Shown here one piece after another: positions 7,123 to 44,556 of a DNA stretch of 64,000 bases. The stretch is from positions 172,485-236,484 of the forward strand of contig CAVZJB010000009.1 in the NCBI GenBank assembly GCA_963775425.1, read 5' to 3'. Within the stretch, counting starts at the first letter, position 1. Each line of letters starts with the position of its first letter. The position numbers were made by a program, and so were the translations under genes. The notes under the pieces are model-generated. The model had not been told where the DNA came from and did no database searches. It saw nothing but the letters and a program-made list of their open reading frames with translations. This stretch comes from an uncultured delta proteobacterium. Lineage in GTDB: Bacteria > Myxococcota > UBA727 > VGSZ01.

Positions 7123-8343
7123 TCACTCGAGGGGCTTGCCGTCGACGACGGCGTAGCTGCCCGGGGCGAGGTCGGCGGGGACCTTTCGCAGCACGCGGTC
7201 GGCGTTCACGTACAGCCGCACGCCGGCGGGGACGGCGCGGCCGGCCGCGATGACGACGTCGGCACCCACGAAGACCTTGGGTCCGAAGGCGACGCCGCAG
7301 GGGAGCTCGCCCACCTCGCGGAGCCCGCCGTCGTCCTCGACGCGCACCGCGCCGCCTACAGCCAGATCCAGCGGTCGCGCGAACGAGGTCAGCGCGCAGC
7401 CCTGAGCGATGACGCAGGCCTGCACGCCGTTGATGCACGCGTCCGTGTCGCCGAAGGTGACGCACGCCGACAGCGACGAATTCAACGACACGAACGTCCG
7501 CGGTCCGAGCGAGCACCCGCTCACGTGCGCGCGCTGCTCGATGACGCAGCCGTCGCCCAGGACGCTGTTGGTCACGTAGCTGTGCGCGCCCACCGTGACG
7601 TCGTCACCGAGCACGCTCGCCTCCACCGTCGCCGTCGGGTGCACGTACGTCCCCCGGCCGCGGTACGAGAACGCCCGACGCAGCGCGCGCATCCGCCCCG
7701 CCCGCGTCGGCCGCAGCGCCGACAGCCCGCGCAGCGCCGAGCGCACCGGCTGCGACGACGCCCGCTCGAGGAGCGCGACCTGCGGCATCAGGTGACCCGC
7801 GCGCAAGACGTGCAACCAGTGTCGCACGCGCATCACCACCGTCGACGTCACGGGGAACACCATCGTCGACGACTCCCTCCCGAGGATGTGCCGTGGCACC
7901 GGCACCTCGAGGTCGAGCTGCCGGTAGGGCGGCGCCCGCCAGCGCTCGGCACCGAGCGCAAAGACGTCCTTGATGCGCAGGCTCTGGCCCGCGGGGACGA
8001 AGCCGACGTCGTAGCCCGCCTTCCCCTCGTGCGTGTCGACGTCCTGCAGCGGCGAGAACAGCTCGAGCAGGCGGCTGGGCTCCAGGCACAAGCGCGACAG
8101 CTCTCCCGCGGCGGCGGACGCGAACCCCTCGAGCGCGCGCTTGCTCACGAAGACGTCGTCGCTCCACACGATGGCGGGCCCGGTGACGCCGTCGTCGACG
8201 CTCGCCTCCTCGACGGACACCTTCTCGTCGCGCAAGACGCGCTCGCGATACGACGCGAACGTCCCGGCGCCGAGGCCGCACGCGTCCACGTCGCAGCCGA
8301 AGGGCGCGATGGTCCGTCCGCGGCGCACGATGACGACCTTCAT
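7123..8343 (-). CDS. Nucleotidyltransferase-like plus left-handed beta-helix (hexapeptide-repeat) protein, GlmU-like sugar-nucleotide enzyme
   Basis: ATG at 8343 (rc), TGA at 7123. N-terminal MKVVIVRRGRT. C-terminal hexapeptide repeats (VGAHSYVTNSVLGDGCVIEQRAHVSGCSLG...). 41 bp downstream of glmU on the same strand. Track ORF 7123..9708 is a frame artefact upstream. Confidence 0.7.
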   Translation of the reverse strand: MKVVIVRRGRTIAPFGCDVDACGLGAGTFASYRERVLRDEKVSVEEASVDDGVTGPAIVWSDDVFVSKRALEGFASAAAGELSRLCLEPSRLLELFSPLQDVDTHEGKAGYDVGFVPAGQSLRIKDVFALGAERWRAPPYRQLDLEVPVPRHILGRESSTMVFPVTSTVVMRVRHWLHVLRAGHLMPQVALLERASSQPVRSALRGLSALRPTRAGRMRALRRAFSYRGRGTYVHPTATVEASVLGDDVTVGAHSYVTNSVLGDGCVIEQRAHVSGCSLGPRTFVSLNSSLSACVTFGDTDACINGVQACVIAQGCALTSFARPLDLAVGGAVRVEDDGGLREVGELPCGVAFGPKVFVGADVVIAAGRAVPAGVRLYVNADRVLRKVPADLAPGSYAVVDGKPLE

Positions 8344-8387: not shown

Positions 8388-9806
8388 CTACTTCTTGGCG
8401 CGCGCCGCGTTCCTGGCGCGCACCTTCGCCGCTTGGCCTTCCTTGTTCGTCTGCCGCGCGCGCCCGAAGGCCAGGGCGTCGGGCGGCACCTCGTCGGTGA
8501 TGACCGAGCCCGCGGCGACGTACGCGCCGCGCTGGATCTCCACGGGGGCCACCAGGGTCGCGTTGCTGCCGATGAAGACCTCGTCGGCGATGACGGTGGG
8601 GTGCTTGCCGATGCCGTCGTAGTTGCAGGTGATGGTGCCGGCGCCGATGTTGACGCCGCGGCCGATGTCGGCGTCGCCGAGGTACGCGAGGTGGTTGGCC
8701 TTGCTCCCTTTGCCGAGCCGCGTCTTCTTCAGCTCCACGAAGTTGCCGACGTGCGCGCCGTCCTCGAGCACCGCGCCCGGCCTCAGCCGCGCGAACGGCC
8801 CCACGATGCAGCGCGGACCGATGCGAGCGCCGTCGCAGACGCTGTAGGGGTGCACCACCAATCCCTCGTCGACCTGCGTGTCGTGCAGCACGCAGCCCGC
8901 GCCGATCTGCGCTCCCTCGCCGACGGTGGTGTTGCCGGACAACACCGCGTTGGGCCCCACGACGACGTCGTGGTGGAAACGCACGCTGGCGTCGACGTAC
9001 GCGCTCTTCGGGTCCACGAAGGTCACGCCGTCGAGCATGGCGCTGTTGATCACGCGCGCCCGCAAGACCTCGGCGGCCTCGGCGAGCTGGGCGCGGTCGT
9101 TGACGCCGAGGGTCTCGCCCACGGGCACCGCGTACGTCGGCACGCCGCGCCCCTCGGTGCGCGCGAGCGCGACGATGTCCGTGAGGTACAGCTCGCCCTG
9201 CGCGTTGTTCGGCTCGAGCTTGTCGAGCGCGGCGCGGAGGAACGCGGCGTCCACGGCGTAGACGCCCGGGTTGATCTCGTCGACGGCGCGCTCGGCCTCC
9301 GAGGCGTCCCTGTGCTCGACGATGCGTTCGAGGAGGCCGTCGGCGCCGCGCACGATGCGGCCGTAGCCGGTGGGGTCCGGCGCGCGGGCCGTCCACAGCG
9401 CCACCGGAGCGCCCGTTCGCGCGCGCAGGTCCACCAGCCCCGCCAGGTGCTGGCCGGTCAGGAGCGGGCAGTCGCCGTAGACGAGGAGCACCGTGCCGGT
9501 GAAGCCCTCGAGGAGCGGCAGCGCCATCCGCGCCGCGTGCCCGGTGCCCTTGAGCTCGGTCTGGTGCACCGTCTTCACCCGGTTGCCGAAGCGACCGGCC
9601 AGCTCCGCGTCCACGAGGTCGTGCCGGTGGCCGGTGACGACGACGACGGGCGACGCCCCCACGACGAGGACGGACTCCACGGGCCAGGAGACGAGGGGTT
9701 TTCCGCACGCCGGGTGCAGCACCTTGGGGATCGCGCTCTTCATGCGCGTGCCCTTGCCGGCGGCGAGGACGACGGCGGCGACGGGCCCGGACGGGTTGGT
9801 GGCCAT
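8388..9806 (-). CDS. glmU: Bifunctional UDP-N-acetylglucosamine pyrophosphorylase / glucosamine-1-phosphate N-acetyltransferase
   Basis: ATG at 9806 (MATNPSGPVAAVVLAAGKGTRM), LAAGxGTRM nucleotidyltransferase motif, C-terminal hexapeptide acetyltransferase domain, about 472 aa. Track ORF 8388..11018 is over-extended. Confidence 0.93.
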   Translation of the reverse strand: MATNPSGPVAAVVLAAGKGTRMKSAIPKVLHPACGKPLVSWPVESVLVVGASPVVVVTGHRHDLVDAELAGRFGNRVKTVHQTELKGTGHAARMALPLLEGFTGTVLLVYGDCPLLTGQHLAGLVDLRARTGAPVALWTARAPDPTGYGRIVRGADGLLERIVEHRDASEAERAVDEINPGVYAVDAAFLRAALDKLEPNNAQGELYLTDIVALARTEGRGVPTYAVPVGETLGVNDRAQLAEAAEVLRARVINSAMLDGVTFVDPKSAYVDASVRFHHDVVVGPNAVLSGNTTVGEGAQIGAGCVLHDTQVDEGLVVHPYSVCDGARIGPRCIVGPFARLRPGAVLEDGAHVGNFVELKKTRLGKGSKANHLAYLGDADIGRGVNIGAGTITCNYDGIGKHPTVIADEVFIGSNATLVAPVEIQRGAYVAAGSVITDEVPPDALAFGRARQTNKEGQAAKVRARNAARAKK

Positions 9807-9828
9807 GACGCGCAACATAGGCGGTGAT

Positions 9829-9857
9829 TTGACGCGGGGCCAGACACGCGGAATAAC
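9829..9857 (+). promoter_or_regulatory. Candidate sigma70-like promoter in the divergent glmU / DUF4388 intergenic region
   Basis: TTGACG (9829-9834), 17 nt spacer, AATAAC (9852-9857), 10 nt before the ATG at 9867. Weak -10. Sequence-only guess. Confidence 0.2.
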
Positions 9858-9866
9858 TCCGAGGCG

Positions 9867-11168
9867 ATGGCGTCGATAAGCGGCGACGTGTCCCTGATGC
9901 CCATTGGCGATCTGATCATCTGGATCGCCAACCGAGCGTTGAGCGGCACGTTCATGGTGAAGAAGCGTGGGGTCGAGTCGCGGTTCGTGATCCGCGACGG
10001 CAAGCTGTGGCAGGCGGCGTCGTTGGATCCGCGCGAGTACCTCGGCCAGCACCTCATCAACTTCGGCTACATCAGCGAAGAGCAGCTCCAGAAGGCGTTC
10101 GACACGCAGCAGGAGACGCACGTCCCCCTCGGCCGCGTCCTCGTCATGGTCGAGGCGGTGAACCAGGAGCAGCTCGACCGCGTGCTGTTGTTCAAGACGC
10201 GCGAGAGCATGCTCGAGACCATGAGCTGGACCGAGGGCGCCTTCAAGCTCGTCGACGAGGTCCCCGAGACCCGAGAGCTCGACACCACGGTCCCCGTCGA
10301 CCTCCACGAGGCGCACAGCGAGGCGCTCGCCCGGGCCTCGATGTGGAACGAGATCAGGAACGTGTTCCCGTCCGACGCCACGCGCGCCGAGGTGCTCGTC
10401 GACGCCGCGCGGCTCAGCGGCTTCGACAAGAAGCTCGTGATGCTCATGCTGTCCGGCCGCTCCATCGGCGAGGCCAGCCTCGAGCTGCGCTCGATGGACT
10501 TCCAGACCTACGCGCGCCTGTACGACCTCTACAACCGCGGCGCCGTGCGTCCACGGCTGGCGTCGAGCACCGTGCAGACGATGCCCGCGAGCATCCCTGC
10601 GCCGCGGGCGGCCACGCCGATGCCGTTCCGCTCCGACGTCCCGCGCACGAAGACGCCCGAAGGCCAGCGTCCGCCGGCGCAGCCGACGCAGCCGTCGTCG
10701 GCGCACGCCCAGGGCGCGGGGATCGGCGGCTACGTGCTGGTGCGGCCCGAGAAGCCCGAGGAGGCGCCCGGCGTGTTGGTGCCGCCGGAGGCGTCGGACC
10801 CGCAGGCGGCGCTGCGGGTGGCGCTCGCGGGCCGCAGTTGGTCGGATGCCCTGTTGTTGTCCCAGCGCATCCTCGAGCTCGACCCGTTGAACTCCGAGGC
10901 CATCGCGGCCTGGCGGGTCGCCGAGGCGCAGCTCAAGAAGGCGCCCGCCGGCGCCGCGGTGGACATGCGGCAGGTGCCGCGGCTGGCCATGCCGCGCGAG
11001 CAGGTCGCGCTCACCCACCTCACGTCCAAGGAGCGCTACGTCCTGTCGCGCGTGGACGGTCGTCGGTCCCTCCAGCAGATCGCCGCCGTCAGCCCCATCC
11101 AGAAAGACGAGCTCGTGCGCATCGTCAACGCATTCGTGAGCCGCGCCGTGCTCAAATTCGAATCATGA
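9867..11168 (+). CDS. DUF4388 domain-containing protein
   Basis: N-terminal SLMPIGDLIIWIANRALSGTFMVKKRGVESRFVIRDGKL is a classic DUF4388 motif. A second similar segment near the C-terminus (THLTSKERYVLSRVDGRRSLQQIA). ATG at 9867. Confidence 0.7.
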   Translation: MASISGDVSLMPIGDLIIWIANRALSGTFMVKKRGVESRFVIRDGKLWQAASLDPREYLGQHLINFGYISEEQLQKAFDTQQETHVPLGRVLVMVEAVNQEQLDRVLLFKTRESMLETMSWTEGAFKLVDEVPETRELDTTVPVDLHEAHSEALARASMWNEIRNVFPSDATRAEVLVDAARLSGFDKKLVMLMLSGRSIGEASLELRSMDFQTYARLYDLYNRGAVRPRLASSTVQTMPASIPAPRAATPMPFRSDVPRTKTPEGQRPPAQPTQPSSAHAQGAGIGGYVLVRPEKPEEAPGVLVPPEASDPQAALRVALAGRSWSDALLLSQRILELDPLNSEAIAAWRVAEAQLKKAPAGAAVDMRQVPRLAMPREQVALTHLTSKERYVLSRVDGRRSLQQIAAVSPIQKDELVRIVNAFVSRAVLKFES

Positions 11169-11737
11169 GCTCGCGCCTCGCCCTGTCCCTCGCCGTCCTC
11201 GGCTGCGCCGCCGCGGGCTGCGGGATCAACGTGCAGCCCATCGAGGCGTACGACGTCGTCCTCCAGCCCACGCAGGACTGCACGCTCACCGGCTCCACCT
11301 CGCGCGACTGCACCGATGACGCCGACCTCGCCGCGCAGCAGACCAAGGGGCGCTGGGTGTTCGAGGCCGGGCCGGCGGAGAGCTTCACGCTCACCACGGA
11401 GGAGGGCTTCACGCTCCCGGGCATCTACTTCCCCGACGACGCCACGGTGCTGAACGAGGCGCCTTGCATCGGCACCGACGGCTCGTCGCTCTGCTACTTC
11501 GCCCGGCGCAAATTCGAGTCCAGCGACGACCGCAACAACGGCTGCACGACGTTCGGCGAGCTCGTGGCCATCCTGCTGCGCACCGACGCCGAGACCTTCA
11601 GCGGCGTCGTCTCCGACACCGCCGGCACCGACCAGAACTGCGGCACCTCCACGGTGGTCCAACGCATCAACGCCGTGAGCGGCAAGCTGTCGGCGGAGCC
11701 GTCGCTGGCTCGGCAGGAAGCGGCGGCGGCACCATGA
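11165..11737 (+). CDS. Cys-rich lipoprotein, paralog 1 of 3
   Basis: ATG at 11165 overlaps the upstream stop (ATGA). Lipobox LGCAAAGC. 8 Cys. Found by reading the C-terminal part of track ORF 10007..11737. Confidence 0.6.
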   Translation: MSSRLALSLAVLGCAAAGCGINVQPIEAYDVVLQPTQDCTLTGSTSRDCTDDADLAAQQTKGRWVFEAGPAESFTLTTEEGFTLPGIYFPDDATVLNEAPCIGTDGSSLCYFARRKFESSDDRNNGCTTFGELVAILLRTDAETFSGVVSDTAGTDQNCGTSTVVQRINAVSGKLSAEPSLARQEAAAAP

Positions 11738-12243
11738 CGAGCACCGCCGTGGAACGCGCCGTCAAGACGGCCTGCGTCGTCGCGGGGCTCGGCTGCGCGC
11801 TGGGGGCCGCCGGCTGCCGCCTCGACCAGTTCAACTTCTACGACGTCACCCGCACGCCCACCGAGGAGTGCGACATCCTGCCCGAGGGCGAGTTCTGCGA
11901 TCCGGACGCGCTGTCGCCGCCGACGACGGAGACGTGGTCGGTGGAGCGCGTCGACAATGTCGTGCGCGTGTACGTCGACGAAGAGGTCTGGGTGGCGAGC
12001 CCGCCCGGCAACAAGGACGACCCGAACCTCGTGAAAGCCTCCAAGCTCGAGGTCGACACGCGCGATCCGGGGGGCTGCACCAACACCATCACGCGCGACT
12101 TCCAGGTGCTCGCCACCGACGCCGACATCACCGGCCAGCTCCACGAAAAGACGCGCCTCGTCGGCGGGCAGGAGTGCGGCGACACGCCGCGCGGCCTGCG
12201 CACCACCGCGCGCATCGACGGAACCATCGCGGGGGCCCCCTGA
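11734..12243 (+). CDS. Cys-rich lipoprotein, paralog 2 of 3
   Basis: ATG at 11734 (ATGA overlap). Lipobox ALGAAGC. Architecture similar to its neighbours. Confidence 0.6.
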   Translation: MTSTAVERAVKTACVVAGLGCALGAAGCRLDQFNFYDVTRTPTEECDILPEGEFCDPDALSPPTTETWSVERVDNVVRVYVDEEVWVASPPGNKDDPNLVKASKLEVDTRDPGGCTNTITRDFQVLATDADITGQLHEKTRLVGGQECGDTPRGLRTTARIDGTIAGAP

Positions 12244-12788
12244 TGCGTGCCCCCACGTGCGTGCCGGCGCTCGCTGCGCTCCTCGTCGGAGGTGGCCTGG
12301 CGGGGTGTGGGCCCGACAGGATCGACGCCACCTTCACGAGCCGCGTGGTGCAGCACGAGACCTGCAAGACCGTCGGCGACCACCCGCAGGTGTGCACGCG
12401 CGAGGAGTCCGTCACCGACGAGCGCGTCCGCCTCGTCGAGCGCGACGACCAGAACGTCTGGCTGTACGGCATCCCGCGCAACGGGGTCTCCGACCGCGCC
12501 ATCCTCGGCACGCGTGACAGCGCCGGCGGCTACCTCTTCGTGGACCAGGTGGTGCAGGAAAACAGCTCCAGCACCTGCACGCTCACCGACCGCCTCGAGA
12601 TCTCCATCAGCGTCGACCCGGACGCCTCCACCGACAAGATCGGCAGCGACCCGTGCATCTCCCTGCTCGGGCGCGAGAACGAGTCCACGGACAGCTCTCC
12701 CGGTTGCGACAACGTCGACGAGCCCCCGGTGAAGACCGTCCTCGTCGCCAACCGCCGCTGGGAAAAGCCCCTCGACTGCTCCCCGTAG
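12243..12788 (+). CDS. Cys-rich lipoprotein, paralog 3 of 3
   Basis: ATG at 12243 (TGATG overlap). Lipobox GGLAGC. Conserved Cys pattern. Confidence 0.6.
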   Translation: MRAPTCVPALAALLVGGGLAGCGPDRIDATFTSRVVQHETCKTVGDHPQVCTREESVTDERVRLVERDDQNVWLYGIPRNGVSDRAILGTRDSAGGYLFVDQVVQENSSSTCTLTDRLEISISVDPDASTDKIGSDPCISLLGRENESTDSSPGCDNVDEPPVKTVLVANRRWEKPLDCSP

Positions 12789-12822
12789 CAGTGTCCGGGC
12801 GCCCGTGCCGATCGCCCGCTGT

Positions 12823-15678
12823 TCAGTCGCCGGAGGCGTCGAGCACGCTCTGCAGGAACGCCTCGGGCGACGAGAAGATCACGTTCGCGCTGCAGGCGGC
12901 GTCGCCGCTGAAGGCGCCGGCGTCGCGCTCGACGGTGAGCACGCCGCCGTCGTAGGCGATGCGGGAGACGCCCGACTGCGCCGCGGCGCCGGCGTCGACG
13001 TCGAGCTCCAGGGCCCACGGGCCGCCTGCGTCCATCCCGGGGTGATCGAAGGCGTAGCCGGTGTGGATGACGCTCCGGCGCTGGCCGGCGGTGGCGCCGA
13101 GATCGGGCACGTCGTCGAGGAAGTCCACGACCGCGAACGACGTGAACGGCGCGTCGTCGTAGCCGAGGTCCGGCGGCAGGAGCGGATCGGTGAACGCCTC
13201 GGTGACCGTCACCCGCAACGCGCCGGCGTCGCAGGTGCGCTGCTCGACGCGGCGCGAGCGCGAGAGGATGTCCTTGGGGATGGGCATCGAGCGCACGAGG
13301 GCGGGCACGCGCACCGTGGACGGCTCGCTGGTGCGCGCCTGCTTGATCACCACGCGCGAGCCCCACACGTTGCCGTTCGCGAGCTCGGGCCATCCGTCGG
13401 CGACCTCGCGCAGCTCGAAGTTGATGGTGAGCTCCCGGCGCTGCTGCGCGAGCGGCAGCGCGGCGTTCTCGATGCCCTTCCAGTACTCCGCCACCTGCCG
13501 GGTCTCGTCGAAGACGCGCGCGAGCTGATCGTCGGTCAACACCCACGAGCCCTCGGGCAGGAGCGTGGAGCCGCGCACGCGGGTGAGGGCGGTGGTGCCG
13601 TCGTCGTGGAGCACGATGCGATCGACCTCGGGGAGGTTCGGATCGCCGGCCGGCGGGTTGGTGACGCTGAGCGCGCCCTCCTGGGCGTTCACCTCGAGGA
13701 CGGCGGCGCCGTCGGGGTGTCCGGGCGGCAGGATGGTGTAGAGCATCACGCCGTTTCCGATCTCCTTCGAGTCCTGGAAGTTGGCGTGGCACGCGCAGCC
13801 CATGGCGCCCGAGAGGTGGTCGACGTTGGCGAGCTTCCGCTCTTCGAAGCCCTCGACGTCCCAGTACGACGCCCACGTCTCCTTCACGGCGTGCTCGATG
13901 GTCTTTTCGTGCTTGCCGCCGCTCAAGCGGTCCGCGTGGAGGTAGCCGGTGTTGGAGGTGTAGAGCCCGGCGCCGTTGAAGCCCTCGGCGTCCTCGACGT
14001 TCGATGACGAGCGGAAGCGGATGCCCTGCCCGTCGGCGTAGCCGCCGAAGTGATCCTCGACCATGGCGGTGATGGCGGCGAGCGCAACCGGATCCATGGG
14101 CTTGTTGCGGATGAGCCCCATGATGCCGCCCTGCTCGATGACGGTGCGCAGCAGGTCGTCGGGCGCGCGTGAGTCGAGGAGCTGCTGCGGGAAGTCCGGG
14201 CGCTCGGGGTGGCGTGTGTTCCAGCCGTCGACGCCTTCGAGGCCGAGGACGCGCACGTTGGCGTCGGCGGCGAATTGCGGGTCGGCGAGCACGGCCTCGA
14301 TGGTGGGCTTGAGATCGGCGATGTGCTCGACGTAGCCGCGCACGGAGACGGCGAAGGGTCGGTCGGGCGTGTCGATGTCCTCCTGGTCGAGGAGCGCGAG
14401 GAAGCCGCTGGCCTTGCCGCCGAGGATCGGGCGCCAGTGCGCCTCGTCGGCGAAGTCGAGGTCGGTGAGGTCGTAGGCGTAGTCGATGGTGCTGACGTCG
14501 ACGGGCGGCGCGGAGCTCGGCGGCACCACGCTGAGCGCGCGGTATTGGGCGAACTGCGCCTCCGTCATGGCGACGAGCCGCAAGCGATCCGGCGCGAGCG
14601 CCTCGAGGACCACCGGGGCGCGCACGCGCGCGAGCTGGTCGAGCCCCGGGTCGTCGAGGATGCCGGCCTGGAAGGCGTTGGGGATGCCGCGGTTCTTGGC
14701 GAGCAGGTTGATGTGCGACAGCGCCGTCTGCGGGACGGCGGTGACGAGGCCCGTGCACTGCGGCAGGAAGTCGACGAGGTCTTCGCTGACGAGCACGTCG
14801 GTGGAGCGCGCGTCCTGGAAGTTCTCGCCGGCGTGGACCACGCGCAGCCGGCCGGCGACGAGGCCGTCGTTGTAGACCTCCGTCTGCCCGGGGACGGTGA
14901 CGTCGCTGTAGTGGATGAAGCGGGCCGCGAGCGGATCACCGTCGGCGACGAGCTGCTGCAGGAGCTCCTCGTGCTGCGGCGAGCGCACGAGCATCTTGAG
15001 GTTGTCGCCGACCTCGGGCGGGAGCGAGGGCTCGACCATCGCGAACATGTCGACGAGCTCGGCCTTGCTCAAGACGTGCTGGTACTCGAGCTCGATGGCC
15101 CAGGTCTCCGGGACCGTGTCGCGCGCGTCGAAGTGAAGCACGGTGCCGATGCCCATGGTCTTCGGCGTGTCGAACAACGAGAGGTTGTAGAAGTGCGGCG
15201 AGTAGAGCCGGTGGTCGCCGACGAACGCCAGGTCGAGCGGCAGGGGGCGCTGCGCGATGACCTCGCCGTCGGCCCACGACACGATGTCGGCGACGCTCGC
15301 GAAGGAGCGGCCGACGTTCACCGGCGCGATGTCGTCGACGCCGTCGACGACGTGGCCGTTCATGAGGCGAAACCAGTACCACTCGTCGTGCAGGCCGTAC
15401 GCGTCGGAGGCGAGCCAGCGCAGGTTCTCACCGGGCTGCATGAAGCGCGTGATGACGAACTTCACCGCGGTGCTCGACGCCGACGGCGCCGCCACGGCCT
15501 CGAAGTCGTCGAAGGTGGCGAGCGCGCGAACGGTGTGATCGTCGAAGCCGTCGCCCTCGCCTTCCCCCTCGCCCTCGCCCTCGCCTTCGCCCGGGTGCGT
15601 GCCCGGGCAGGCCATGAGACCTGCAGGCAGCAGCAGCAGCAGGGCCAAGCCCCCGATCTTCTTCACGACACCCATCAT
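12823..15678 (-). CDS. Large lipoprotein with PEP-utilising-enzyme mobile (His) domain and a pyruvate-phosphate-dikinase PEP/pyruvate-binding-like domain
   Basis: ATG ATG at 15678 (rc). Lipobox LMAC followed by GEGEGEGEGEGEGDG. TALSHINLLAKNRGIPNAFQAGI matches the PEP-utilisers phospho-His motif. GGKASGFLAL is PPDK_N-like. About 951 aa. Track ORF 12823..15969. Confidence 0.6.
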   Translation of the reverse strand: MMGVVKKIGGLALLLLLPAGLMACPGTHPGEGEGEGEGEGEGDGFDDHTVRALATFDDFEAVAAPSASSTAVKFVITRFMQPGENLRWLASDAYGLHDEWYWFRLMNGHVVDGVDDIAPVNVGRSFASVADIVSWADGEVIAQRPLPLDLAFVGDHRLYSPHFYNLSLFDTPKTMGIGTVLHFDARDTVPETWAIELEYQHVLSKAELVDMFAMVEPSLPPEVGDNLKMLVRSPQHEELLQQLVADGDPLAARFIHYSDVTVPGQTEVYNDGLVAGRLRVVHAGENFQDARSTDVLVSEDLVDFLPQCTGLVTAVPQTALSHINLLAKNRGIPNAFQAGILDDPGLDQLARVRAPVVLEALAPDRLRLVAMTEAQFAQYRALSVVPPSSAPPVDVSTIDYAYDLTDLDFADEAHWRPILGGKASGFLALLDQEDIDTPDRPFAVSVRGYVEHIADLKPTIEAVLADPQFAADANVRVLGLEGVDGWNTRHPERPDFPQQLLDSRAPDDLLRTVIEQGGIMGLIRNKPMDPVALAAITAMVEDHFGGYADGQGIRFRSSSNVEDAEGFNGAGLYTSNTGYLHADRLSGGKHEKTIEHAVKETWASYWDVEGFEERKLANVDHLSGAMGCACHANFQDSKEIGNGVMLYTILPPGHPDGAAVLEVNAQEGALSVTNPPAGDPNLPEVDRIVLHDDGTTALTRVRGSTLLPEGSWVLTDDQLARVFDETRQVAEYWKGIENAALPLAQQRRELTINFELREVADGWPELANGNVWGSRVVIKQARTSEPSTVRVPALVRSMPIPKDILSRSRRVEQRTCDAGALRVTVTEAFTDPLLPPDLGYDDAPFTSFAVVDFLDDVPDLGATAGQRRSVIHTGYAFDHPGMDAGGPWALELDVDAGAAAQSGVSRIAYDGGVLTVERDAGAFSGDAACSANVIFSSPEAFLQSVLDASGD

Positions 15679-34292: not shown

Positions 34293-35051
34293 ATGCCGTG
34301 GCTGTTGTCACTGCTGCTCGCCGCGTCGCTCGCCGAGGACCCGCGCTTCGCCGACGCCGCGGAGCGCATGCGCAAGCTCGACTACGAAGGCGCCGTCACC
34401 GCGTTCGACGCCTTGCTCGAGGAGGCCCGTCCCGACGGCGAGCGCGTGACGCTGTTGCTCTACTCCGGCGCCGCCCGCGCCCTCCTCGGCGACGACGGCG
34501 CCGCGCGCCTCGCGTTCGAGAGCGCCCTGCGGATCGATCCGGACACGTCGTTCGACCTCAACACCTCGCCCAAGGTCGTCGCCCTCTTCGACGACGTGAA
34601 GCACACCGTCTCCGCGCGCGCGGGCCCACCGCCCCCCGCCGACGGACGCGCGGGCCCCGCGCTCGTGCCGTCGAGCGCGGCCGCTCCCCCCAGCCCCCGA
34701 AGCTCGACCGCCGCCGCGCCGCGCGCGCACGCGCCGGCCGCCGAGGAGCAAGCCAGTCCCGACCTCGCCGCCGTCGCCGGCATCGGCGCCGCCGTCGTCG
34801 GCGCCGCCGCGGGGATGGCGAGCGTGGCCTTCGGCCTCGACGTCGCCGGCAAGATGCAGACCGCGAGCGACAAGGGCACCTCGCAGCAGGACGCCCAGGC
34901 CCTCGTCGACGACGCCAACGCATCGCTCCTGTGGGCGTCCGTGCTCGGCGGCGCCTGCGTCGCCGGCGCCGGCACGGCGGTCGCAATGTTCGTCTTCGGC
35001 GACGCGCCGGAGCCTGCGGCGGCCGCGGCCGCGAAACCGACGGGGGAGTGA
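34293..35051 (+). CDS. TPR-like secreted protein with C-terminal TM
   Basis: ATG at 34293. Signal peptide. TPR-like helices. Ala/Pro linker. C-terminal hydrophobic segment. Confidence 0.55.
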   Translation: MPWLLSLLLAASLAEDPRFADAAERMRKLDYEGAVTAFDALLEEARPDGERVTLLLYSGAARALLGDDGAARLAFESALRIDPDTSFDLNTSPKVVALFDDVKHTVSARAGPPPPADGRAGPALVPSSAAAPPSPRSSTAAAPRAHAPAAEEQASPDLAAVAGIGAAVVGAAAGMASVAFGLDVAGKMQTASDKGTSQQDAQALVDDANASLLWASVLGGACVAGAGTAVAMFVFGDAPEPAAAAAAKPTGE

Positions 35052-35109
35052 GATCGCGCGCGCCGCCCACACCCTGATCACCGACCTCGCCACGGGCGAG
35101 ACGCTCGCG

Positions 35110-36489
35110 ATGACGCTGTGGCTGCGCGTCATCGCCGGGCCCGACCGCGGCAAGCGCATCCCGCTGCGCGCCGGCGCCATCGTCCTCGGCGCCGGCGACG
35201 TCGACGTCCCCCTCAGGGACCCGCGCGTGTCCCGCAGCCACGCGAGCTTCGAGCTCGTCGCCGACGGCGTGCGCGTGCGCGATCTGCGCTCGAAGAACGG
35301 TACGCGGGTGAACGGCGCCCCCACCGCCGAGGCCGTGGTCCGGCCGGGCGCCGTCGTCGAGATCGGCGACACCGCGCTCGTCGTCGACGGCGACGGCGAC
35401 GTCGTCGACGTCCCCCGCACTTCGGGCGCGCGCGGTGCCGGCGCGCCGGCGTTCGGCGCGTCGATGCGGCGCATCGTCGCCGTGCTCGATCGCGCGGCCA
35501 GGAGCGACGTGACGGTGCTCCTGCAAGGAGAGAGCGGCACCGGCAAGGACGTCATGGCGCGCGCGCTTCACGGCAAGAGCTCGCGCGCCAAGGCGCCGTT
35601 CGTCGTCGTCGATTGCGGCGCCATCGCGCCTGGCCTCGTGGCGAGTGAGCTGTTCGGGCACAAGCGGGGCGCCTTCACGTCGGCGCACGAAGACCGCGTC
35701 GGCGCGTTCGAGGCCGCGCGCGGCGGGACGCTCTTCCTCGACGAGATCGGCGAGCTGCCGCTCGAGCTCCAGCCCGCGCTCTTGCGCGTGCTCGAGATGC
35801 GGCAGGTGACACGCGTCGGCGAGAGCCACGCGCGCCACGTCGACGTGCGCGTGGTGGCGGCCACCAACCGCAAGCTGAAGAGCGAGGTGGACGGGGGCCG
35901 CTTCCGCGCCGACTTGTTCTTCCGGTTGGCGGTGGTGAGCGTGGCGTTGCCGCCGTTGCGCGAGCGCAAGGACGAGATCCTCGCGTTCGCCGGTGAGTTC
36001 CTGCGTGAGCAGGGCCGCAGCCTCGACGACGTCGCCGCCGCGGACCGCCGCCGGCTCCTCGAATATCCGTGGCCCGGCAACGTGCGCGAGCTGAAGAACG
36101 TGGTGCTGCGCGCTTGTGCGCTCACGGGCCTCGACGAACCCGTGCGGCTCACCTTCGACGACGACGCCGTCCGCGGCCGCGCGAGCGTCGCCGCCCCGGG
36201 CGCCGCCGGCGAAAGCGCCCGTGTCGAGCGCGGCGCCGCCGCCGTCGACGCGCGCCTCGCGCCGCTCGCAGACGGCGCTTTGCTCGAGCGCACGCTCCCC
36301 GAGGCGCGCCGCGCGATGCTCGACGACCTCGACGCGCGCTACCTCGCGGCGGTGCTCGAGGCGTGCGGCGGCAACGTCAGCGCCGCCGCGCGCAAGGCCG
36401 GCGTGGCCCGCAGCTACTTCCACCGCCTGTTGCAGCGGCACCGCCCGTCCGGCGGGCGCGGGGCGGGCCGCCGCGGGCCGGCGAGGTGA
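35110..36489 (+). CDS. Sigma-54-dependent transcriptional activator with N-terminal FHA domain
   Basis: FHA (GRxxxxDVxLxDPRVSRSHA). AAA+ sigma54-interaction domain with GESGTGKD, GAFTSA-like and ESELFGH motifs. C-terminal HTH. Confidence 0.9.
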   Translation: MTLWLRVIAGPDRGKRIPLRAGAIVLGAGDVDVPLRDPRVSRSHASFELVADGVRVRDLRSKNGTRVNGAPTAEAVVRPGAVVEIGDTALVVDGDGDVVDVPRTSGARGAGAPAFGASMRRIVAVLDRAARSDVTVLLQGESGTGKDVMARALHGKSSRAKAPFVVVDCGAIAPGLVASELFGHKRGAFTSAHEDRVGAFEAARGGTLFLDEIGELPLELQPALLRVLEMRQVTRVGESHARHVDVRVVAATNRKLKSEVDGGRFRADLFFRLAVVSVALPPLRERKDEILAFAGEFLREQGRSLDDVAAADRRRLLEYPWPGNVRELKNVVLRACALTGLDEPVRLTFDDDAVRGRASVAAPGAAGESARVERGAAAVDARLAPLADGALLERTLPEARRAMLDDLDARYLAAVLEACGGNVSAAARKAGVARSYFHRLLQRHRPSGGRGAGRRGPAR

Positions 36490-40925: not shown

Positions 40926-41340
40926 CAGTCGCTCCCGGCGAACAGCGGCTTCAGCCGGAACCCACCGGTGGAAGGGTCGAACAGCGCGAGCGCGGCGGCG
41001 CTGGCGCCGACCAGACCCGACCACACGAGCAGGCCCGCGCCGCCAATCTGCGCCACGGACTGCACGTGATCGTCGACGTCGTTGCGCGGCGTATTTGCGT
41101 ACGACGCCGCGAGCACGCCGGCGCCGCCGAGGGCGAGGCCGACGCTCAAAAACGCGAGCTCGCCGGGGAGGATGCTCGGGCTCACGGCGGGCCTGTCCTC
41201 GGCAGGCTTCTTGTCGGCGGCGACGGGCGGCGCGGCGTCGGCGGGCGCCGCGCACGCCGGCGTGCGGTCGACGACGCCGGCGCAAGGCGCGGGACCGGCG
41301 CCGAGGGCGAGGGCGAGGGCGACGGGGACGGCGGCGATCA
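40925..41340 (-). CDS. Small secreted/membrane hypothetical protein
   Basis: ATG at 41340 overlaps the lgt stop. 138 aa. Ala-rich hydrophobic segments. Confidence 0.45.
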
Positions 41341-42195
41341 TGCAGGGTCCGTGGCGGGCAGGGGCTCGCGCGGGTCGCGGAGCTTCCCGGCGCGGGCGAG
41401 GCGGAGGTTTCGCCGCCACACATAGATCGTGACGGGGAGGGATGCGAGGGCGACGAGCTGCGACGTCGAGACGAGCCCGTGAAACCACAGCCCGCGGTCG
41501 GTGTCGGCGCGGACCGTCTCGGTGCAAAAGCGCCACACGGCGTAGCAGACGATGTAGGCGCAGAGGGCTTCGCCGGCGAAGCGCCGCTTCTTGTACAGGA
41601 GCGCGAGCGCGACGAGGCCGACGAGACCGAACGCGGAGTCGTACAGCTCGACGGGGTGCACCGGCACCGAGCCCGACGGGTGCCCGGGCGGGAACGTCAC
41701 CGCCCAGGGCAAGGACGTGGGCACGCCGTAGCAGCAGCCGCCGAGGAAACACCCGATGCGGCCGACAAACGTCCCGAACAAGAGCCCGGGGACGCCGTAG
41801 TCGCCGAGGCCGCCCGGCTCGGGGATGCCGCGGCGGACGGTGAAGAGCCACCCCATGGCGACGGCGCCGACGACGCCGCCGTAGAAGACGTAGCCGGCTT
41901 CGAACAGCCGCGCCCAGTGCCAGGGGTCGTCCTTGAGGAGGTCGATGATGCCGCGCGCGGTGCTGCCGTCGCTGAGCACGTGGCCGCGCGCCTCGAACAG
42001 CGTGTGGAAGAGCTTGGACCCGAGGAGCGCGGAGATGACGACGACGATGGCGAGGTCAATCATGTCCCGCAGGGGCCGTCCGTCCTTGAGCCCGAGCCAG
42101 ACGCCGCAGCCGACGCCGGCGAGGTAGCCGAGCACCGTCGCCGCCACGTAGGAATGCACGGTCTGGCCGAAGGCCGAAAACAGCACCGGGTGCAC
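41338..42195 (-). CDS. lgt: Prolipoprotein diacylglyceryl transferase
   Basis: Lgt signature GRIGCFLGGCCYG and conserved HP..LY...G. Start taken as GTG at 42195 (VHPVLFSAFG). The track ORF extends further upstream into repeat sequence. Confidence 0.8.
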   Translation of the reverse strand: MHPVLFSAFGQTVHSYVAATVLGYLAGVGCGVWLGLKDGRPLRDMIDLAIVVVISALLGSKLFHTLFEARGHVLSDGSTARGIIDLLKDDPWHWARLFEAGYVFYGGVVGAVAMGWLFTVRRGIPEPGGLGDYGVPGLLFGTFVGRIGCFLGGCCYGVPTSLPWAVTFPPGHPSGSVPVHPVELYDSAFGLVGLVALALLYKKRRFAGEALCAYIVCYAVWRFCTETVRADTDRGLWFHGLVSTSQLVALASLPVTIYVWRRNLRLARAGKLRDPREPLPATDPA

Positions 42196-42210
42196 CCCGT
42201 GTCTGTAGCA

Positions 42211-42453
42211 GTTTCTTGGCGCGCTGCGCGCGCCGCGCGCTTCGCGCGGGGCCCTCCGGGCCCCCCACGCGCTTCGCGCGCGGGCCCCCCCCTTCTTCAG
42301 CTTGCGCATCGATGGGCCCGCTCGCGGAGCTCGCGCTTCCGCGAGACATGCAGCGCGCTCCTCAAAGACGCGGGACCAAGCTCGCGGCGGAGCCGCCCTC
42401 GCAGCGGACTGCGGCGGCCGGCTCCGCCGCGCTCCTTTTCGACGGCTTGACCT
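42211..42453. repeat. Inverted repeat, left arm (about 240 bp), upstream of lgt
   Basis: About 88% identical to the reverse complement of 44259..44490. Examples: cgggaccaagctcgcggcggagccgccctcgcagcggactgcggcggccggctccgccgcgctcc versus cgggacgaagctcgcggcggagccggcctcgcagcggactgcggcggccggctccgccgcgctcc. Confidence 0.8.
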
Positions 42454-42516
42454 CGTCACCCCCCCGAACGGCTCCGCCGCTACGACTGGGACGTGCCCTC
42501 GGCGTCCTCATCGGGC

Positions 42517-42660: not shown

Positions 42661-44025
42661 TCAGCGACGCGGCGCTCTGCCTCGGTGCGGCGATCGCGCC
42701 GTGGTGATGATGGCCACGGCGGTCTTGCCCTGGTGCGGCTCGCCGACCAGGACGACGCCGGGGAGCGCCGGCATCGCCACCACATGCACAAACGCAGGGA
42801 CCTCCCACGTCGCCGTCGCATCCAGGGCGAAGCCGGCCGCAGTGCCCTTGTGGAGCGCCGCTCTCCCAGGCTCGCCCAGGTCCAGCAGGTCCGGCACGCC
42901 GTCGCCGTCGAAGTCGACGCTCACCACCGGCAGCGCGCCGTCCATGTGCCCGCCGCGCACGTCGGCCTTCGCCTGCATCGCCAGCGGTTCGCCCCCCTGG
43001 AGCCCCACCTTCACCGGGATCCGCCCGGTGACGACGACGGCCGACAGCGAGACCAGCGACGTGTCCACCTCCGCCACCACCAGCGCGCGGCCGCGTTCAC
43101 CGATGGGCGCCACGAGCCCGTCCCGCCGCCACAGCAAGCGCGGCGACGAAAACGGCCGCGCCGACGTCGACGACACCAGCCACGCCTCCGAGCGCTCGGG
43201 CACCGCGCCGCGCGTCACGCCGATCACGGCGTCGGCGCGGCCGTCCGCGTCGGCGTCGACGATGCGCACACGCAGGTCGGCGTCGCCCGCGCCGACGGTG
43301 CGCCCGAGGTCGCCGGACAGCCACGGACTCGCCTCGAGATCGCCGGCGGTGCGGCGCCACACGACCACCTCCCCCTCGTGCACGGCGATCAGGTCCGTGT
43401 CGCCGTCGGCGTCCACGTCGGCGTCGATGAGGCGCGGCCCATACAGCGACAGCGCCTCCGCGTAGCCCCGATCGGGCCGCAGCCCGCGATGCGCCCGTCC
43501 CGAGTACGCGCGCGCCTCGTGGCGCATGTGCACCAAGCGCGGCGCCTTCGCCGCCTCCCCGCCGCGCGGCGGACGCGGCACGACAAGGAGGCCGTCCACC
43601 ACAGGCAAGCGGAGCTCGCCGTCGCCGTCGCCGCGCTGGCCGCAAAGGTCCGCCACCAGCAGCGCGTCCGCGTCCGGCACCGTGAACAGCGCGTGCCCCT
43701 CGACGAGCACCTTGCCGTCGACGTCCTCGAGGCCCCGCGGTCCCGCGAACACGACGCGGCCGTCAGGGCACGCGTCCACGAAGATCGCGTCGGCCGGGAC
43801 CCGGCTGTCCGCGGCCGCCCGCCGGCCCTCCGCGTCGACGCGGACCAGGCGACGACCCCGCGCGTCCGCGCTCGTGAGCACGATGGTCCGCGGCTTCGCG
43901 AAGAAGGCATCGGAGACCGCGCCGTCGATCGCCACCACCGGCGCAGCAGCGGCGACCACGGCAGCGACGACGGCAATGACGGCGGACAGCACGCCGTCCT
44001 CTATCGCCCCGGCGCGCCCATGCAT
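42661..44025 (-). CDS. Secreted FG-GAP/VCBS-repeat protein
   Basis: ATG at 44025 (MHGRAGAIEDGVLSAVIAVVAAVVAAAAP signal-like). Repeated DxDGDGxxDL motifs (DADVDADGDTDLIAV, DADADGRADAVIGV, DFDGDGVPDLLDLG). Track ORF 42661..44346 is over-extended into non-coding repeats. Confidence 0.65.
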   Translation of the reverse strand: MHGRAGAIEDGVLSAVIAVVAAVVAAAAPVVAIDGAVSDAFFAKPRTIVLTSADARGRRLVRVDAEGRRAAADSRVPADAIFVDACPDGRVVFAGPRGLEDVDGKVLVEGHALFTVPDADALLVADLCGQRGDGDGELRLPVVDGLLVVPRPPRGGEAAKAPRLVHMRHEARAYSGRAHRGLRPDRGYAEALSLYGPRLIDADVDADGDTDLIAVHEGEVVVWRRTAGDLEASPWLSGDLGRTVGAGDADLRVRIVDADADGRADAVIGVTRGAVPERSEAWLVSSTSARPFSSPRLLWRRDGLVAPIGERGRALVVAEVDTSLVSLSAVVVTGRIPVKVGLQGGEPLAMQAKADVRGGHMDGALPVVSVDFDGDGVPDLLDLGEPGRAALHKGTAAGFALDATATWEVPAFVHVVAMPALPGVVLVGEPHQGKTAVAIITTARSPHRGRAPRR

Positions 44026-44040
44026 ACCCACGGACCAAGG

Positions 44041-44230
44041 CAAGAAAGCAGAAGGGGGAAGGGGAGAAGGCAGAAGGCAAGAAGGCAAGAAAGGCAAGAA
44101 GGCAAGAAGGCAAGAAGGCAAGAAGGCAAGAAGGCAAGAAGGCAAGAAGGCAAGAAGGCAAGAAGGCAAGAAGGCAAGAAGGCAAGAAGGCAAGAAGGCA
44201 AGAAGGCAAGAAGGCAAGAAGGCAAGAAGG
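44041..44230. repeat. 8 bp tandem repeat, about 19 perfect copies (ggcaagaa) plus about 4 degenerate copies
   Basis: Perfect octamer array at 44081-44230, starting 16 nt upstream of the FG-GAP start codon. Reads ttcttgcc on the coding strand. Confidence 0.9.
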
Positions 44231-44258
44231 TGGAGGAGCGCTGACGACGAGGCGGGGC

Positions 44259-44490
44259 GGTCAAGCCCCCCAACAGGAGCGCGGCGGAGCCGGCCGCCGC
44301 AGTCCGCTGCGAGGCCGGCTCCGCCGCGAGCTTCGTCCCGCGTCATTGAGGAGGGCGCTGCGCCTCTCGCGAAAGCGCGAGCTCCGCGAGCGGGCCGTTC
44401 GAAGGCACACCCTCAAGCGGGGGGGACCCGCGCGGAGCGCGGGGGGGCCCGGAGGGCCCGGCTGTTCGCGCGCGAAGCGCGCAAAAAAGC
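44259..44490. repeat. Inverted repeat, right arm (about 230 bp)
   Basis: Reverse complement aligns with 42211..42453 along the whole length. Confidence 0.8.
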
Positions 44491-44515: not shown

Positions 44516-44556
44516 CCACGGTCGATCGGCTGCGGGGTCGATCGGCTGCGGGGGTC

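What the first reader, a model, noticed from the sequence alone, without database searches (positions are those of the whole stretch)
9867..12788. DUF4388 protein followed by three translationally coupled paralogous Cys-rich lipoproteins
The four genes overlap by ATGA/ATGA/TGATG. The three lipoproteins are 170-190 aa each, carry a lipobox and about 8 conserved Cys, and were missed or merged in the ORF track. DUF4388 proteins are signalling-associated. A lipoprotein triplet suggests an envelope-localised output or adhesin set.
Basis: partly seen in the sequence, partly recalled or inferred. Interest (0 to 1): 0.5.

Follow-up and report, generated by a model that had tools for sequence, protein, structure and literature searches.

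The report
PATAN protein plus three barrel lipoproteins
A conserved four-gene operon in uncultured Myxococcota encodes a cytoplasmic PATAN/DUF4388 signalling-type protein with a c-di-GMP-receptor-like insert, followed by three anciently duplicated, disulfide-stapled beta-barrel lipoproteins of unknown function; it is real and undescribed, but nothing yet shows a new mechanism.

Summary
Four + strand genes sit at 9867-11168 (G1, 433 aa), 11165-11737 (L1), 11734-12243 (L2) and 12243-12788 (L3). They overlap by ATGA/ATGA/TGATG and each has GC3 of 0.95.

G1 is a PATAN/DUF4388 protein. Its alpha-helical insert matches the MshEN-type c-di-GMP-binding motif. A Pro-rich linker, one TPR-like hairpin and a small conserved C-terminal domain follow.

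L1-L3 are lipoprotein precursors with 6, 4 and 6 mature Cys; only four Cys positions are shared by all three. Pairwise BLAST shows almost no similarity. Profile comparison without signal peptides supports common descent: L1-L2 96% probability, and L1-L3 weak but about 8 sd above shuffled controls. AlphaFold models of L1 and L3 (pLDDT about 90) are both eight-stranded beta-barrels with the same structural neighbours.

The fold is generic and no Pfam, NCBIfam or PADLOC family fits. The G1-L1-L2-L3 order recurs in Myxococcota metagenome contigs from 54 to 72% GC. G1 also occurs without the triplet, and L1-L2 once without G1.

Most likely reading: a co-expressed, roughly equimolar trio of periplasmic, membrane-tethered barrels, genetically linked to a cytoplasmic c-di-GMP-type adaptor. 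An adhesin role is unsupported. Interest is moderate to low.

The parts
9807..9866 (.). 60-bp divergent intergenic region between glmU (-) and G1 (+); presumed promoter region for the operon
   Evidence: Gene ends. No sigma-70 consensus, terminator or Rfam match in 9600-13000. Promoter function is inferred, not shown.
9867..11168 (+). G1: 433-aa cytoplasmic PATAN/DUF4388 protein
   Evidence: Pfam PF14332 at E 1.7e-17. No hydrophobic segment; maximum KD19 is 1.33. GC3 is 0.95. Orthologues of 50-78% identity occur in 11 Myxococcota MAG loci.
9879..10346 (+). PATAN (DUF4388) domain, aa 5-160, including the helical insert
   Evidence: The Pfam match covers aa 5-160 against profile positions 1-121 of 122.
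10041..10187 (+). Alpha-clip / MshEN_N-like tandem 24-residue motif (aa 59-107): YLGQHLINFGYISEEQLQKAFDTQ ... PLGRVLVMVEAVNQEQLDRVLLFK
   Evidence: NCBIfam NF053729 'cyclic di-GMP-binding domain, MshE-related' scores 51.3 bits against a cutoff of 38. It aligns to the PilF GSPII-B and MshE c-di-GMP-binding domains in the PDB. Each half deviates at one position from the relaxed motif of PMC5013675: Y at position 1 of motif 1, and E at position 10 of motif 2.
10539..10766 (+). Pro/Ala-rich linker of variable length (about aa 225-300)
   Evidence: Orthologues range from 409 to 575 aa, mainly through this segment. tblastn splits the match here.
10800..10937 (+). Single TPR-like helical hairpin (about aa 312-357)
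   Evidence: The profile of 14 orthologues matches consensus TPR proteins at positions 24-55. Weak TPR Pfam hits occur in several orthologues.
11019..11165 (+). Conserved C-terminal domain (aa 385-433, KERYVLSRxDGxRxLxxIxxVSP...), possibly winged-helix-like
   Evidence: This is the most conserved block of alignment A8, with an invariant KERYVLSR. Only sub-threshold HTH-type hits were found. The fold was not predicted.
11165..11737 (+). L1: 190-aa lipoprotein precursor (lipobox Cys19; mature Cys 39, 49, 101, 110, 127, 159); eight-stranded beta-barrel
11734..12243 (+). L2: 169-aa lipoprotein precursor (lipobox Cys28; mature Cys 46, 55, 115, 148); paralogue of L1
   Evidence: Alignment A3. hhalign against L1 without signal peptides gives 96% probability, E 6e-9, 134 columns, with all four Cys in register. 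No structure was predicted for L2.
12243..12788 (+). L3: 181-aa lipoprotein precursor (lipobox Cys22; mature Cys 41, 51, 112, 138, 155, 179); eight-stranded beta-barrel; most diverged paralogue
8388..9806 (-). glmU, divergently transcribed; conserved neighbour of G1 (context, not part of the operon)
   Evidence: Pfam NTP_transferase plus Hexapep. It lies upstream of G1 in L002-L010 and L013-L016.

Best explanation
This is one transcription unit of four genes.

G1 is a soluble cytoplasmic adaptor. Its PATAN domain carries an alpha-clip insert homologous to the MshEN_N c-di-GMP-binding module. G1 therefore probably binds c-di-GMP, or at least uses that module. Like the characterised PATAN proteins, it probably acts through protein-protein contacts. 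Its TPR hairpin and conserved C-terminal domain would serve as further interaction surfaces.

L1, L2 and L3 descend from an old tandem triplication. Each is exported by a type II (lipoprotein) signal peptide and acylated on the invariant Cys. Each folds into an acidic eight-stranded up-and-down beta-barrel. Two shared disulfides hold the barrel: one clamps the first hairpin (C-x8-9-C), and one links the start of strand 6 to the strand 7-8 loop. L1 and L3 each have one extra disulfide.

The overlapping stop and start codons and the fixed gene order argue that the three are made in similar amounts and act together. The most likely form is a membrane-tethered hetero-oligomer in the periplasm that binds something rather than catalysing a reaction. 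They have no Lys at +2, so by the Myxococcus xanthus sorting rule they would go to the outer membrane.

Shown here: gene structure, domain content, homology of the three, predicted fold, and conserved synteny. Inferred: c-di-GMP binding, acylation and localisation, disulfide pairing, complex formation, and any functional dependence between G1 and the trio.
For: - Junctions and frames are exact.
- PATAN is identified by Pfam. The MshE-type c-di-GMP motif scores above the curated cutoff and aligns to solved c-di-GMP-binding GSPII/MshEN domains.
- PATAN domains act by binding PilB/PilC in Synechocystis (bioRxiv 10.1101/2021.06.11.447907). MshEN_N alone binds c-di-GMP and is often fused to uncharacterised domains (PMC5013675).
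- Signal peptide statistics: -1 is G/A/S in all 86 family members scored (of 87 aligned), a K/R n-region occurs in 83 of 86, +2 is never Lys or Asp, and mature Cys numbers are even in L1 and L3 and in the window's L2.
- An Lgt gene is present in the window.
- Homology: L1-L2 has 96% probability. L1-L3 scores 28.8 against a shuffled 11.7 +/- 2.2 and a reversed 15.0. The four Cys columns align in both comparisons. Cross-family HMM hits rank directly after the orthologues.
- The G1-L1-L2-L3 order, mostly with 1-4 nt overlaps, recurs in the window, L002-L006, L013-L016, a JGI contig and L020. L021 shows G1-L1-L2, then the contig ends. These span 54-72% GC and down to about 30% identity for L1.
Against: - G1 orthologues next to glmU have no triplet in L008 and L009. 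L007 also shows no hit, but only about 1.9 kb lies downstream there. The more distant G1 homologues in L011 and L012 also lack it.
- L017 has L1-L2 without a PATAN gene upstream. So neither part strictly needs the other nearby.
- Both halves of the c-di-GMP motif deviate at one consensus position, including the Arg position of motif 1.
- The barrel fold is generic, and no ligand, partner or machine can be named.
- The window's neighbourhood is housekeeping, with no pilus, secretion or motility genes adjacent.
- The L2 fold, complex formation and disulfide pairing were not modelled.
Confidence: 0.4

Rival explanations
1. The lipoprotein trio is an autonomous periplasmic module that only shares a promoter with G1. 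Examples would be small-molecule or protein binders, or inhibitors that shield the cell's own envelope from lytic enzymes, in the manner of the barrel lipoproteins MliC/PliC/ACP.
For: - L017 carries L1-L2 with a 4-nt overlap but no PATAN gene.
- G1 orthologues exist without the triplet.
- G1 is cytoplasmic and cannot touch periplasmic proteins.
Against: - The G1-L1 junction is tight (overlap or 2-nt gap) in most loci, across 54-72% GC.
- No Pfam MliC/PliC match appears in any of 85 family members scanned.
- The inhibitor hits are weaker than hits to unrelated barrels, so the resemblance is at fold level only.
Confidence: 0.3
2. One reading: the triplet is the envelope output of DUF4388 signalling and acts as a set of surface adhesins.
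For: Synteny is conserved with a signalling-type protein. The proteins are exported and lipid-anchored with no inner-membrane retention residue at +2.
Against: - No adhesin-type domain, repeat or lectin-like family was found.
- The proteins are small, acidic single barrels.
- No surface-lipoprotein export partner was seen among the gene calls around the operon.
- Surface exposure cannot be inferred from sequence.
Confidence: 0.12
3. L1-L3 are small integral outer-membrane beta-barrels of the OmpA/OmpW/NspA type rather than soluble barrels.
Against: - They have lipoprotein signal peptides with an invariant Cys.
- They have two or three conserved Cys pairs and a net charge of about -12 to -14.
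- No C-terminal aromatic residue is present of the kind typical of BAM substrates; the ends are ...AAAP...GAP and ...CSP.
- Soluble barrels (Cap15, avidins, NHBA) match equally well or better.
Confidence: 0.06
4. The three downstream ORFs are not real genes, or are not related to each other. That would make the pattern chance ORFs in a 70% GC sequence.
For: Pairwise BLASTP between the three is insignificant apart from the signal peptides. High-GC DNA yields many long spurious ORFs.
Against: - GC3 is 0.95 against GC2 of about 0.5 in the stated frames.
- There are 24, 15 and 48 homologues with conserved motifs.
- The AF2 models are high-confidence.
- Profile-level similarity is far above shuffled and reversed controls.
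Confidence: 0.01

Closest known systems
PATAN-domain proteins (Pfam PF14332 DUF4388/PatA_N): PatA of Anabaena, PixE/PixG of Synechocystis, SgnC and other M. xanthus PATAN proteins
   Same: The N-terminal PATAN domain carries the alpha-helical 'alpha-clip' insertion. The protein is cytoplasmic. The family is abundant in Myxococcota.
   Different: G1 has no receiver (REC) domain, so it is not a PatA-type response regulator. It has instead a Pro-rich linker, one TPR hairpin and a conserved C-terminal domain. It is encoded in an operon with three lipoproteins. No pilus or chemotaxis genes are nearby.
MshEN / GSPII-B c-di-GMP receptor module (V. cholerae MshE, T. thermophilus PilF, E. coli NfrB)
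   Same: G1 carries the tandem 24-residue motif, recognised by NCBIfam NF053729 above its cutoff. It is alignable to solved c-di-GMP-binding domains.
   Different: The module is embedded in a PATAN domain rather than at the N-terminus of a secretion ATPase or glycosyltransferase. Motif 1 has Tyr in place of Arg/Lys/Pro/Asn at position 1, and motif 2 has Glu in place of Gly/Ala/Ser at position 10. Binding is untested.
Small eight-stranded beta-barrel proteins: Cap15 barrel (7n34), avidins, MliC/PliC/ACP lysozyme inhibitors, C-terminal barrels of neisserial lipoproteins (NHBA, fHbp, HpuA), PsbO
   Same: The predicted fold of L1 and L3 is the same up-and-down eight-stranded barrel. Several of these proteins are also lipoproteins.
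   Different: Sequence identity is 4-14% with no shared motifs, and no family HMM matches. L1-L3 have their own conserved Cys pattern. They occur as a fixed trio behind a PATAN gene. The Cap15 context (transmembrane helices, CBASS operon) is absent.
Tandem paralogous lipoprotein arrays in bacterial genomes in general
   Same: The genes are adjacent, co-oriented and translationally coupled, and encode small exported paralogues.
   Different: The duplication here is ancient; the three families are no longer recognisable pairwise. All three copies are retained in fixed order across lineages. That points to three non-redundant roles rather than recent expansion or antigenic variation.

Membership tests
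PATAN / DUF4388 (PF14332) | Match to the family HMM above the gathering score | tested here: met
   64 bits against a cutoff of 25, aa 5-160, profile positions 1-121 of 122.
PATAN / DUF4388 (PF14332) | Alpha-helical insertion (alpha-clip) of two helical-hairpin repeats inside the domain | tested here: met
   aa 59-124 align to MshEN/GSPII helical repeats. The match spans 156 residues against a 122-position profile.
PatA-type response regulator | C-terminal CheY-like receiver (REC) domain | tested here: not met
   No Response_reg hit in Pfam or NCBIfam at E <= 1. The C-terminus is a TPR-like hairpin plus an unassigned domain.
MshEN-type c-di-GMP receptor | [quoted passage not shown] | tested here: inconclusive
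   NF053729 scores 51.3 bits against a cutoff of 38. By eye against the published relaxed motif, motif 1 fails at position 1 (Y) and motif 2 at position 10 (E); all other positions fit.
MshEN-type c-di-GMP receptor | Binding of c-di-GMP | not testable with these tools
   Needs ITC, DRaCALA or a similar assay on the purified domain.
Bacterial lipoproteins (signal peptidase II substrates) | Basic n-region, hydrophobic h-region, and a lipobox ending in [GAS]-Cys within about 15-35 residues of the start | tested here: met
   The Cys is invariant in all 87 aligned homologues. Of the 86 scored, -1 is G/A/S in all and 83 have a K/R n-region. The median signal length is 19-20 residues. Position -3 is often A/G rather than L. 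No dedicated predictor was available.
Bacterial lipoproteins (signal peptidase II substrates) | Lipid modification and membrane anchoring | not testable with these tools
   An Lgt gene is present in the window, but acylation itself needs an experiment.
One paralogous family L1/L2/L3 | Statistically supported sequence similarity outside the signal peptide | tested here: met
   L1-L2: hhalign 96% probability, E 6e-9, 134 columns. L1-L3: E 6e-4 (local) and 7e-5 (global), probability 28-34%, scores 28.8 and 25.7 against shuffled 11.7 +/- 2.2 and 3.4 +/- 2.4. L2-L3 is not detectable directly, so L3 is linked through L1.
One paralogous family L1/L2/L3 | Same fold | tested here: inconclusive
MliC/PliC lysozyme inhibitors | Match to the family HMM and its conserved motifs | tested here: not met
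Cap15 CBASS effector | N-terminal transmembrane helices plus a barrel, encoded next to a CD-NTase | tested here: not met
Integral outer-membrane 8-stranded barrels (OmpA/OmpW/NspA) | Type I signal peptide, C-terminal aromatic beta-signal, lipid-facing hydrophobic belt | tested here: not met
   The signal peptides are lipoprotein-type. The C-termini are ...AAAP...GAP and ...CSP. Conserved Cys pairs are present and net charge is -12 to -14. The hydrophobic belt could not be checked without coordinates.

The most novel reading that the evidence does not exclude
G1-L1-L2-L3 is a dedicated signalling-to-envelope module. In this reading, a c-di-GMP-sensing PATAN adaptor controls assembly or activity of a previously unknown outer-membrane lipoprotein complex made of three non-redundant barrel subunits. 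An unidentified inner-membrane partner would connect them. That would make it a new accessory of a motility, secretion or surface-polymer apparatus in non-model Myxococcota. An even bolder version follows the Cap15 resemblance: the barrels would bind a nucleotide or other small signal in the periplasm.
Probability: 0.12. Interest if true: 0.6.

Novelty: new member of a known kind. Interest (0 to 1): 0.3.

Why it matters
Myxococcota encode dozens of PATAN and MshEN-type proteins whose targets are almost all unknown. A PATAN gene locked for a long evolutionary time to three specific envelope lipoproteins gives a concrete, testable pairing. It would link a probable c-di-GMP receptor to an envelope component.

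The three lipoprotein families have no Pfam or NCBIfam model, although they can be modelled with high confidence. They could be defined as one new family with a diagnostic four-Cys pattern.

No mechanism or phenotype can be attached yet, and the fold is common. The practical value today is annotation and a hypothesis, not a discovery.

Tried and rejected
- **Pairwise BLASTP and a three-sequence MAFFT alignment.** These were too insensitive. The apparent L1-L2 hit was mostly signal peptide.
- **hhalign with signal peptides left in.** It gave inflated probabilities (94% and 69%). I repeated it without them and with more diverse profiles.
- **One concatenated L1+L2+L3 sequence, to model all three in a single job.** MAFFT mis-aligned the families, so I did not submit it. 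L2 therefore has no model.
- **Fold search against afdb50.** The library was not installed. Foldseek against the PDB gave only weak PsbO-type hits with TM about 0.3.
- **PDB sequence search with the L3 profile.** Nothing at E <= 10.
- **Pfam, NCBIfam and PADLOC on the lipoproteins and on 85 homologues.** No recurrent family.
- **The search for related loci in metagenome contigs with diverse L1 alignments.** I used single look-ups of remote homologues instead.
- **Promoter, terminator and Rfam scans of 9000-13500.** Nothing found.
- **A link to the gliding-motility lipoproteins CglC/E/F of M. xanthus.** I considered it from memory and made a literature search. No sequences were available to test it, so I dropped it.
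- **The Cap15 top hit as evidence for nucleotide binding.** Rejected, because the fold is generic, the proteins are exported, and no defence context exists.
Full report
**1. What is in the sequence**

The window has about 70% G+C. The mechanical ORF list shows many overlapping ORFs. Four + strand genes can be fixed exactly:
- G1, 9867-11168 (433 aa)
- L1, 11165-11737 (190 aa)
- L2, 11734-12243 (169 aa)
- L3, 12243-12788 (181 aa)

The junctions read ATGA, ATGA and TGATG. All four genes have GC3 of 0.95 and GC2 of about 0.5, the same as the flanking glmU and other neighbours. They are therefore native coding sequence in these frames. Public gene calls hold exactly these four products, unnamed, on a 394-kb contig. 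In the raw ORF list the three small genes are buried in longer ORFs that run upstream into the preceding gene.

**2. G1**

Pfam places aa 5-160 in PF14332 (DUF4388, now PatA_N; 64 bits against a cutoff of 25). NCBIfam recognises aa 59-107 as the 'cyclic di-GMP-binding domain, MshE-related' (NF053729; 51 bits against a cutoff of 38). The same stretch aligns to the solved c-di-GMP-binding GSPII-B domain of Thermus PilF and to MshE.

This is the alpha-helical insertion ('alpha-clip') already described for PATAN domains, and it is related to the N-termini of secretion and pilus ATPases (bioRxiv 10.1101/2021.06.11.447907). I compared it with the relaxed motif published for MshEN (PMC5013675). The first 24-mer, YLGQHLINFGYISEEQLQKAFDTQ, deviates only at position 1 (Tyr). 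The second, PLGRVLVMVEAVNQEQLDRVLLFK, deviates only at position 10 (Glu). Binding of c-di-GMP is therefore plausible but open.

The rest of G1 has three parts:
- a Pro/Ala-rich linker whose length varies between orthologues, which range from 409 to 575 aa;
- one TPR-like hairpin;
- a strongly conserved C-terminal block, KERYVLSRxDGxRxL..VSP, with only sub-threshold helix-turn-helix-type hits.

G1 has no receiver domain and no hydrophobic segment. It is a cytoplasmic PATAN protein, not a PatA-type response regulator.

**3. The three lipoproteins**

Each begins with a basic residue, a hydrophobic stretch and a small residue followed by Cys. That Cys is invariant in all 87 aligned homologues. Of the 86 scored, position -1 is G/A/S in all, and +2 is G, R, A or S, never K or D. 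A prolipoprotein diacylglyceryl transferase gene lies in the window.

The mature parts are acidic (net about -12 to -14) and hold 6, 4 and 6 Cys. It overstates what the three share: only the lipobox Cys and four further positions are common to all.

**4. Are they paralogues?**

Pairwise, hardly. BLASTP gives L1-L2 3e-5, almost entirely signal peptide, L1-L3 1.0 and L2-L3 0.28.

I collected homologues of each protein (49, 25 and 15 hits) and compared family profiles. With signal peptides included the probabilities look good (94%, 69%, 11%). After removing them they collapse (28%, 0.3%, 1.5%).

Adding more diverse sequences restores a real signal. A full HMMER scan of 1.84 billion representatives found only 43 L1-type proteins. 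With a 60-sequence L1 profile (Neff 4.7) and no signal peptides:
- L1-L2 reaches 96% probability, E 6e-9, over 134 of about 140 columns.
- L1-L3 reaches E 6e-4 (local) and 7e-5 (global) over 129-148 columns, with probability only 28-34%.

Controls with column-shuffled target profiles give local scores of 11.7 +/- 2.2 (maximum 16.4 in 40 trials). Reversed profiles give 15-19. The observed scores are 56.4 for L2 and 28.8 for L3.

In both alignments the four core Cys fall in the same columns:

| Protein | Core Cys positions |
|---|---|
| L1 | 39 / 49 / 127 / 159 |
| L2 | 46 / 55 / 115 / 148 |
| L3 | 41 / 51 / 112 / 155 |

These four, plus the lipobox Cys, are the only Cys invariant across the diverse L1 family. 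Cross-family HMM hits also rank directly behind the true orthologues in every set of loci searched, and in the window itself.

I conclude that the three are diverged paralogues. This is well supported for L1-L2 and reasonably supported for L3. L2 was not modelled, and I could not superpose the models directly.

**5. What the fold says**

Little. The structural neighbours are a mixture:
- designed barrels
- avidins
- small outer-membrane barrels (NspA, OmpA, OmpW, PagL)
- the C-terminal barrels of neisserial lipoproteins
- PliC/MliC-type lysozyme inhibitors
- PsbO

All share 4-14% identity with the models. Foldseek against the PDB gives nothing better than TM about 0.3. Pfam, NCBIfam and PADLOC give no family for the window proteins or for 85 homologues, and the PDB sequence search is empty.

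The lipoprotein signal, the conserved Cys pairs, the acidity and the lack of a C-terminal aromatic residue favour soluble, lipid-tethered periplasmic barrels over membrane-inserted ones. This is an inference.

**6. Conservation of the arrangement**

A genome scan with G1 found 11 Myxococcota MAG loci. The block of hexapeptide-repeat gene (-) and glmU (-), divergent from G1-L1-L2-L3 (+), is present in these places:
- L002-L006
- three further metagenome places reached from L3 homologues
- L020, a 54% GC contig where L1 is only about 32% identical and no glmU was seen
- L021, where G1-L1-L2 is visible before the contig ends

Gene junctions there are mostly 4-nt or 1-nt overlaps, or 2-nt gaps. 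The genes downstream of L3 differ between loci, so the conserved unit ends at L3.

There are two kinds of exception:
- G1 orthologues that still sit next to glmU are followed by a convergent diacylglycerol-kinase-like gene, with no triplet, in L008 and L009. L007 shows no triplet hit either, but only about 1.9 kb lies downstream. The more distant L011 and L012 also lack it.
- L017, a 39% GC contig, has L1-like and L2-like genes with a 4-nt overlap but no PATAN gene upstream.

The association is therefore old and frequent, but not obligatory.

**7. Neighbourhood**

The surroundings are housekeeping or unrelated: UvrB, a TPR/FlgO-like protein, thioredoxin-reductase-like, the LbH protein, GlmU, a large lipoprotein with a sub-threshold PPDK_N match, RNase PH, a Crp-type regulator, a MauG-like peroxidase and NDH-2. 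No pilus, secretion or gliding genes flank the operon. No promoter consensus, terminator or Rfam element was detected.

**8. Explanation and limits**

The best-supported picture is a four-gene operon. It co-expresses a cytoplasmic PATAN adaptor carrying a c-di-GMP-receptor-like module with three non-redundant, disulfide-stabilised barrel lipoproteins. These are produced in similar amounts and probably work as one envelope-tethered assembly.

That PATAN proteins act through protein contacts with membrane machines is established only for cyanobacterial examples. Here it is an analogy. G1 cannot reach the periplasm, so any functional coupling needs an unidentified membrane partner, or is purely regulatory.

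The main rival is that the trio is autonomous and merely shares the promoter. The G1-only and L-only loci make this a serious alternative. The adhesin idea has no support.

**9. Novelty**

PATAN domains, their alpha-clip and the MshEN motif are known. Small barrel lipoproteins are common. Two things are not described, as far as the libraries and papers I could search show. One is the three-member lipoprotein family, with its four-Cys signature, narrow distribution (43 clusters at 50% identity among 1.84 billion proteins for L1) and no Pfam or NCBIfam model. The other is its long-standing linkage to one particular PATAN protein.

I rate this a new member of known kinds, of moderate to low interest, useful mainly as an annotation and a testable pairing.

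Noticed in passing
window 12823-15678 (-): A 951-aa predicted lipoprotein (MMGVVKKIGGLALLLLLPAGLMAC, followed by a Gly-Glu repeat run) whose only family signal is a sub-threshold PPDK_N (ATP-grasp-type) match. It is convergent with L3 and is conserved beside the operon in L002, L003 and L013 but not elsewhere. An exported protein with a PEP-utilising-enzyme-like domain is unusual.
   Followed up: partly
window 7123-8343 (-): A 406-aa left-handed beta-helix (hexapeptide-repeat) protein lies directly downstream of glmU. It lacks a nucleotidyltransferase domain. It is conserved together with glmU next to G1 in most loci.
   Followed up: partly
window 45640-46521 (+) and 46545-47558 (+): A YscJ/FliF-family lipoprotein is followed by a FliG-like protein. 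No other type III secretion or flagellar genes were noticed in the parts of the window I annotated.
   Followed up: no
window 41338-42507 (-): Prolipoprotein diacylglyceryl transferase (Lgt), the first enzyme of lipoprotein maturation, is encoded in the same window.
   Followed up: no
window 34600-36489 (+): An FHA-domain sigma-54 activator (enhancer-binding protein) with a Fis-type HTH.
   Followed up: no
L008 8001-9605 and L009 2950-4677: These G1 orthologues have a much longer Pro/Ala-rich linker (534 and 575 aa) and no lipoprotein triplet. A diacylglycerol-kinase-like gene converges on them instead.
   Followed up: yes
L017 1679-2634: A 39% GC contig carries L1-like and L2-like genes with a 4-nt overlap but no PATAN gene upstream; a DnaJ gene and a 206-aa gene lie there, divergently. 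This shows the lipoprotein module can exist without G1 nearby.
   Followed up: partly
L020 3541-4843: In a 54% GC lineage the G1-L1-L2-L3 operon is followed by two more co-oriented genes of unknown function (240 and 191 aa) that are absent from the window.
   Followed up: no
window 44001-46000, 50001-52000, 58001-60000: There are local peaks of AT skew (0.21-0.34) in the composition profile. I read ORFs in these three regions but did not work out the cause.
   Followed up: partly
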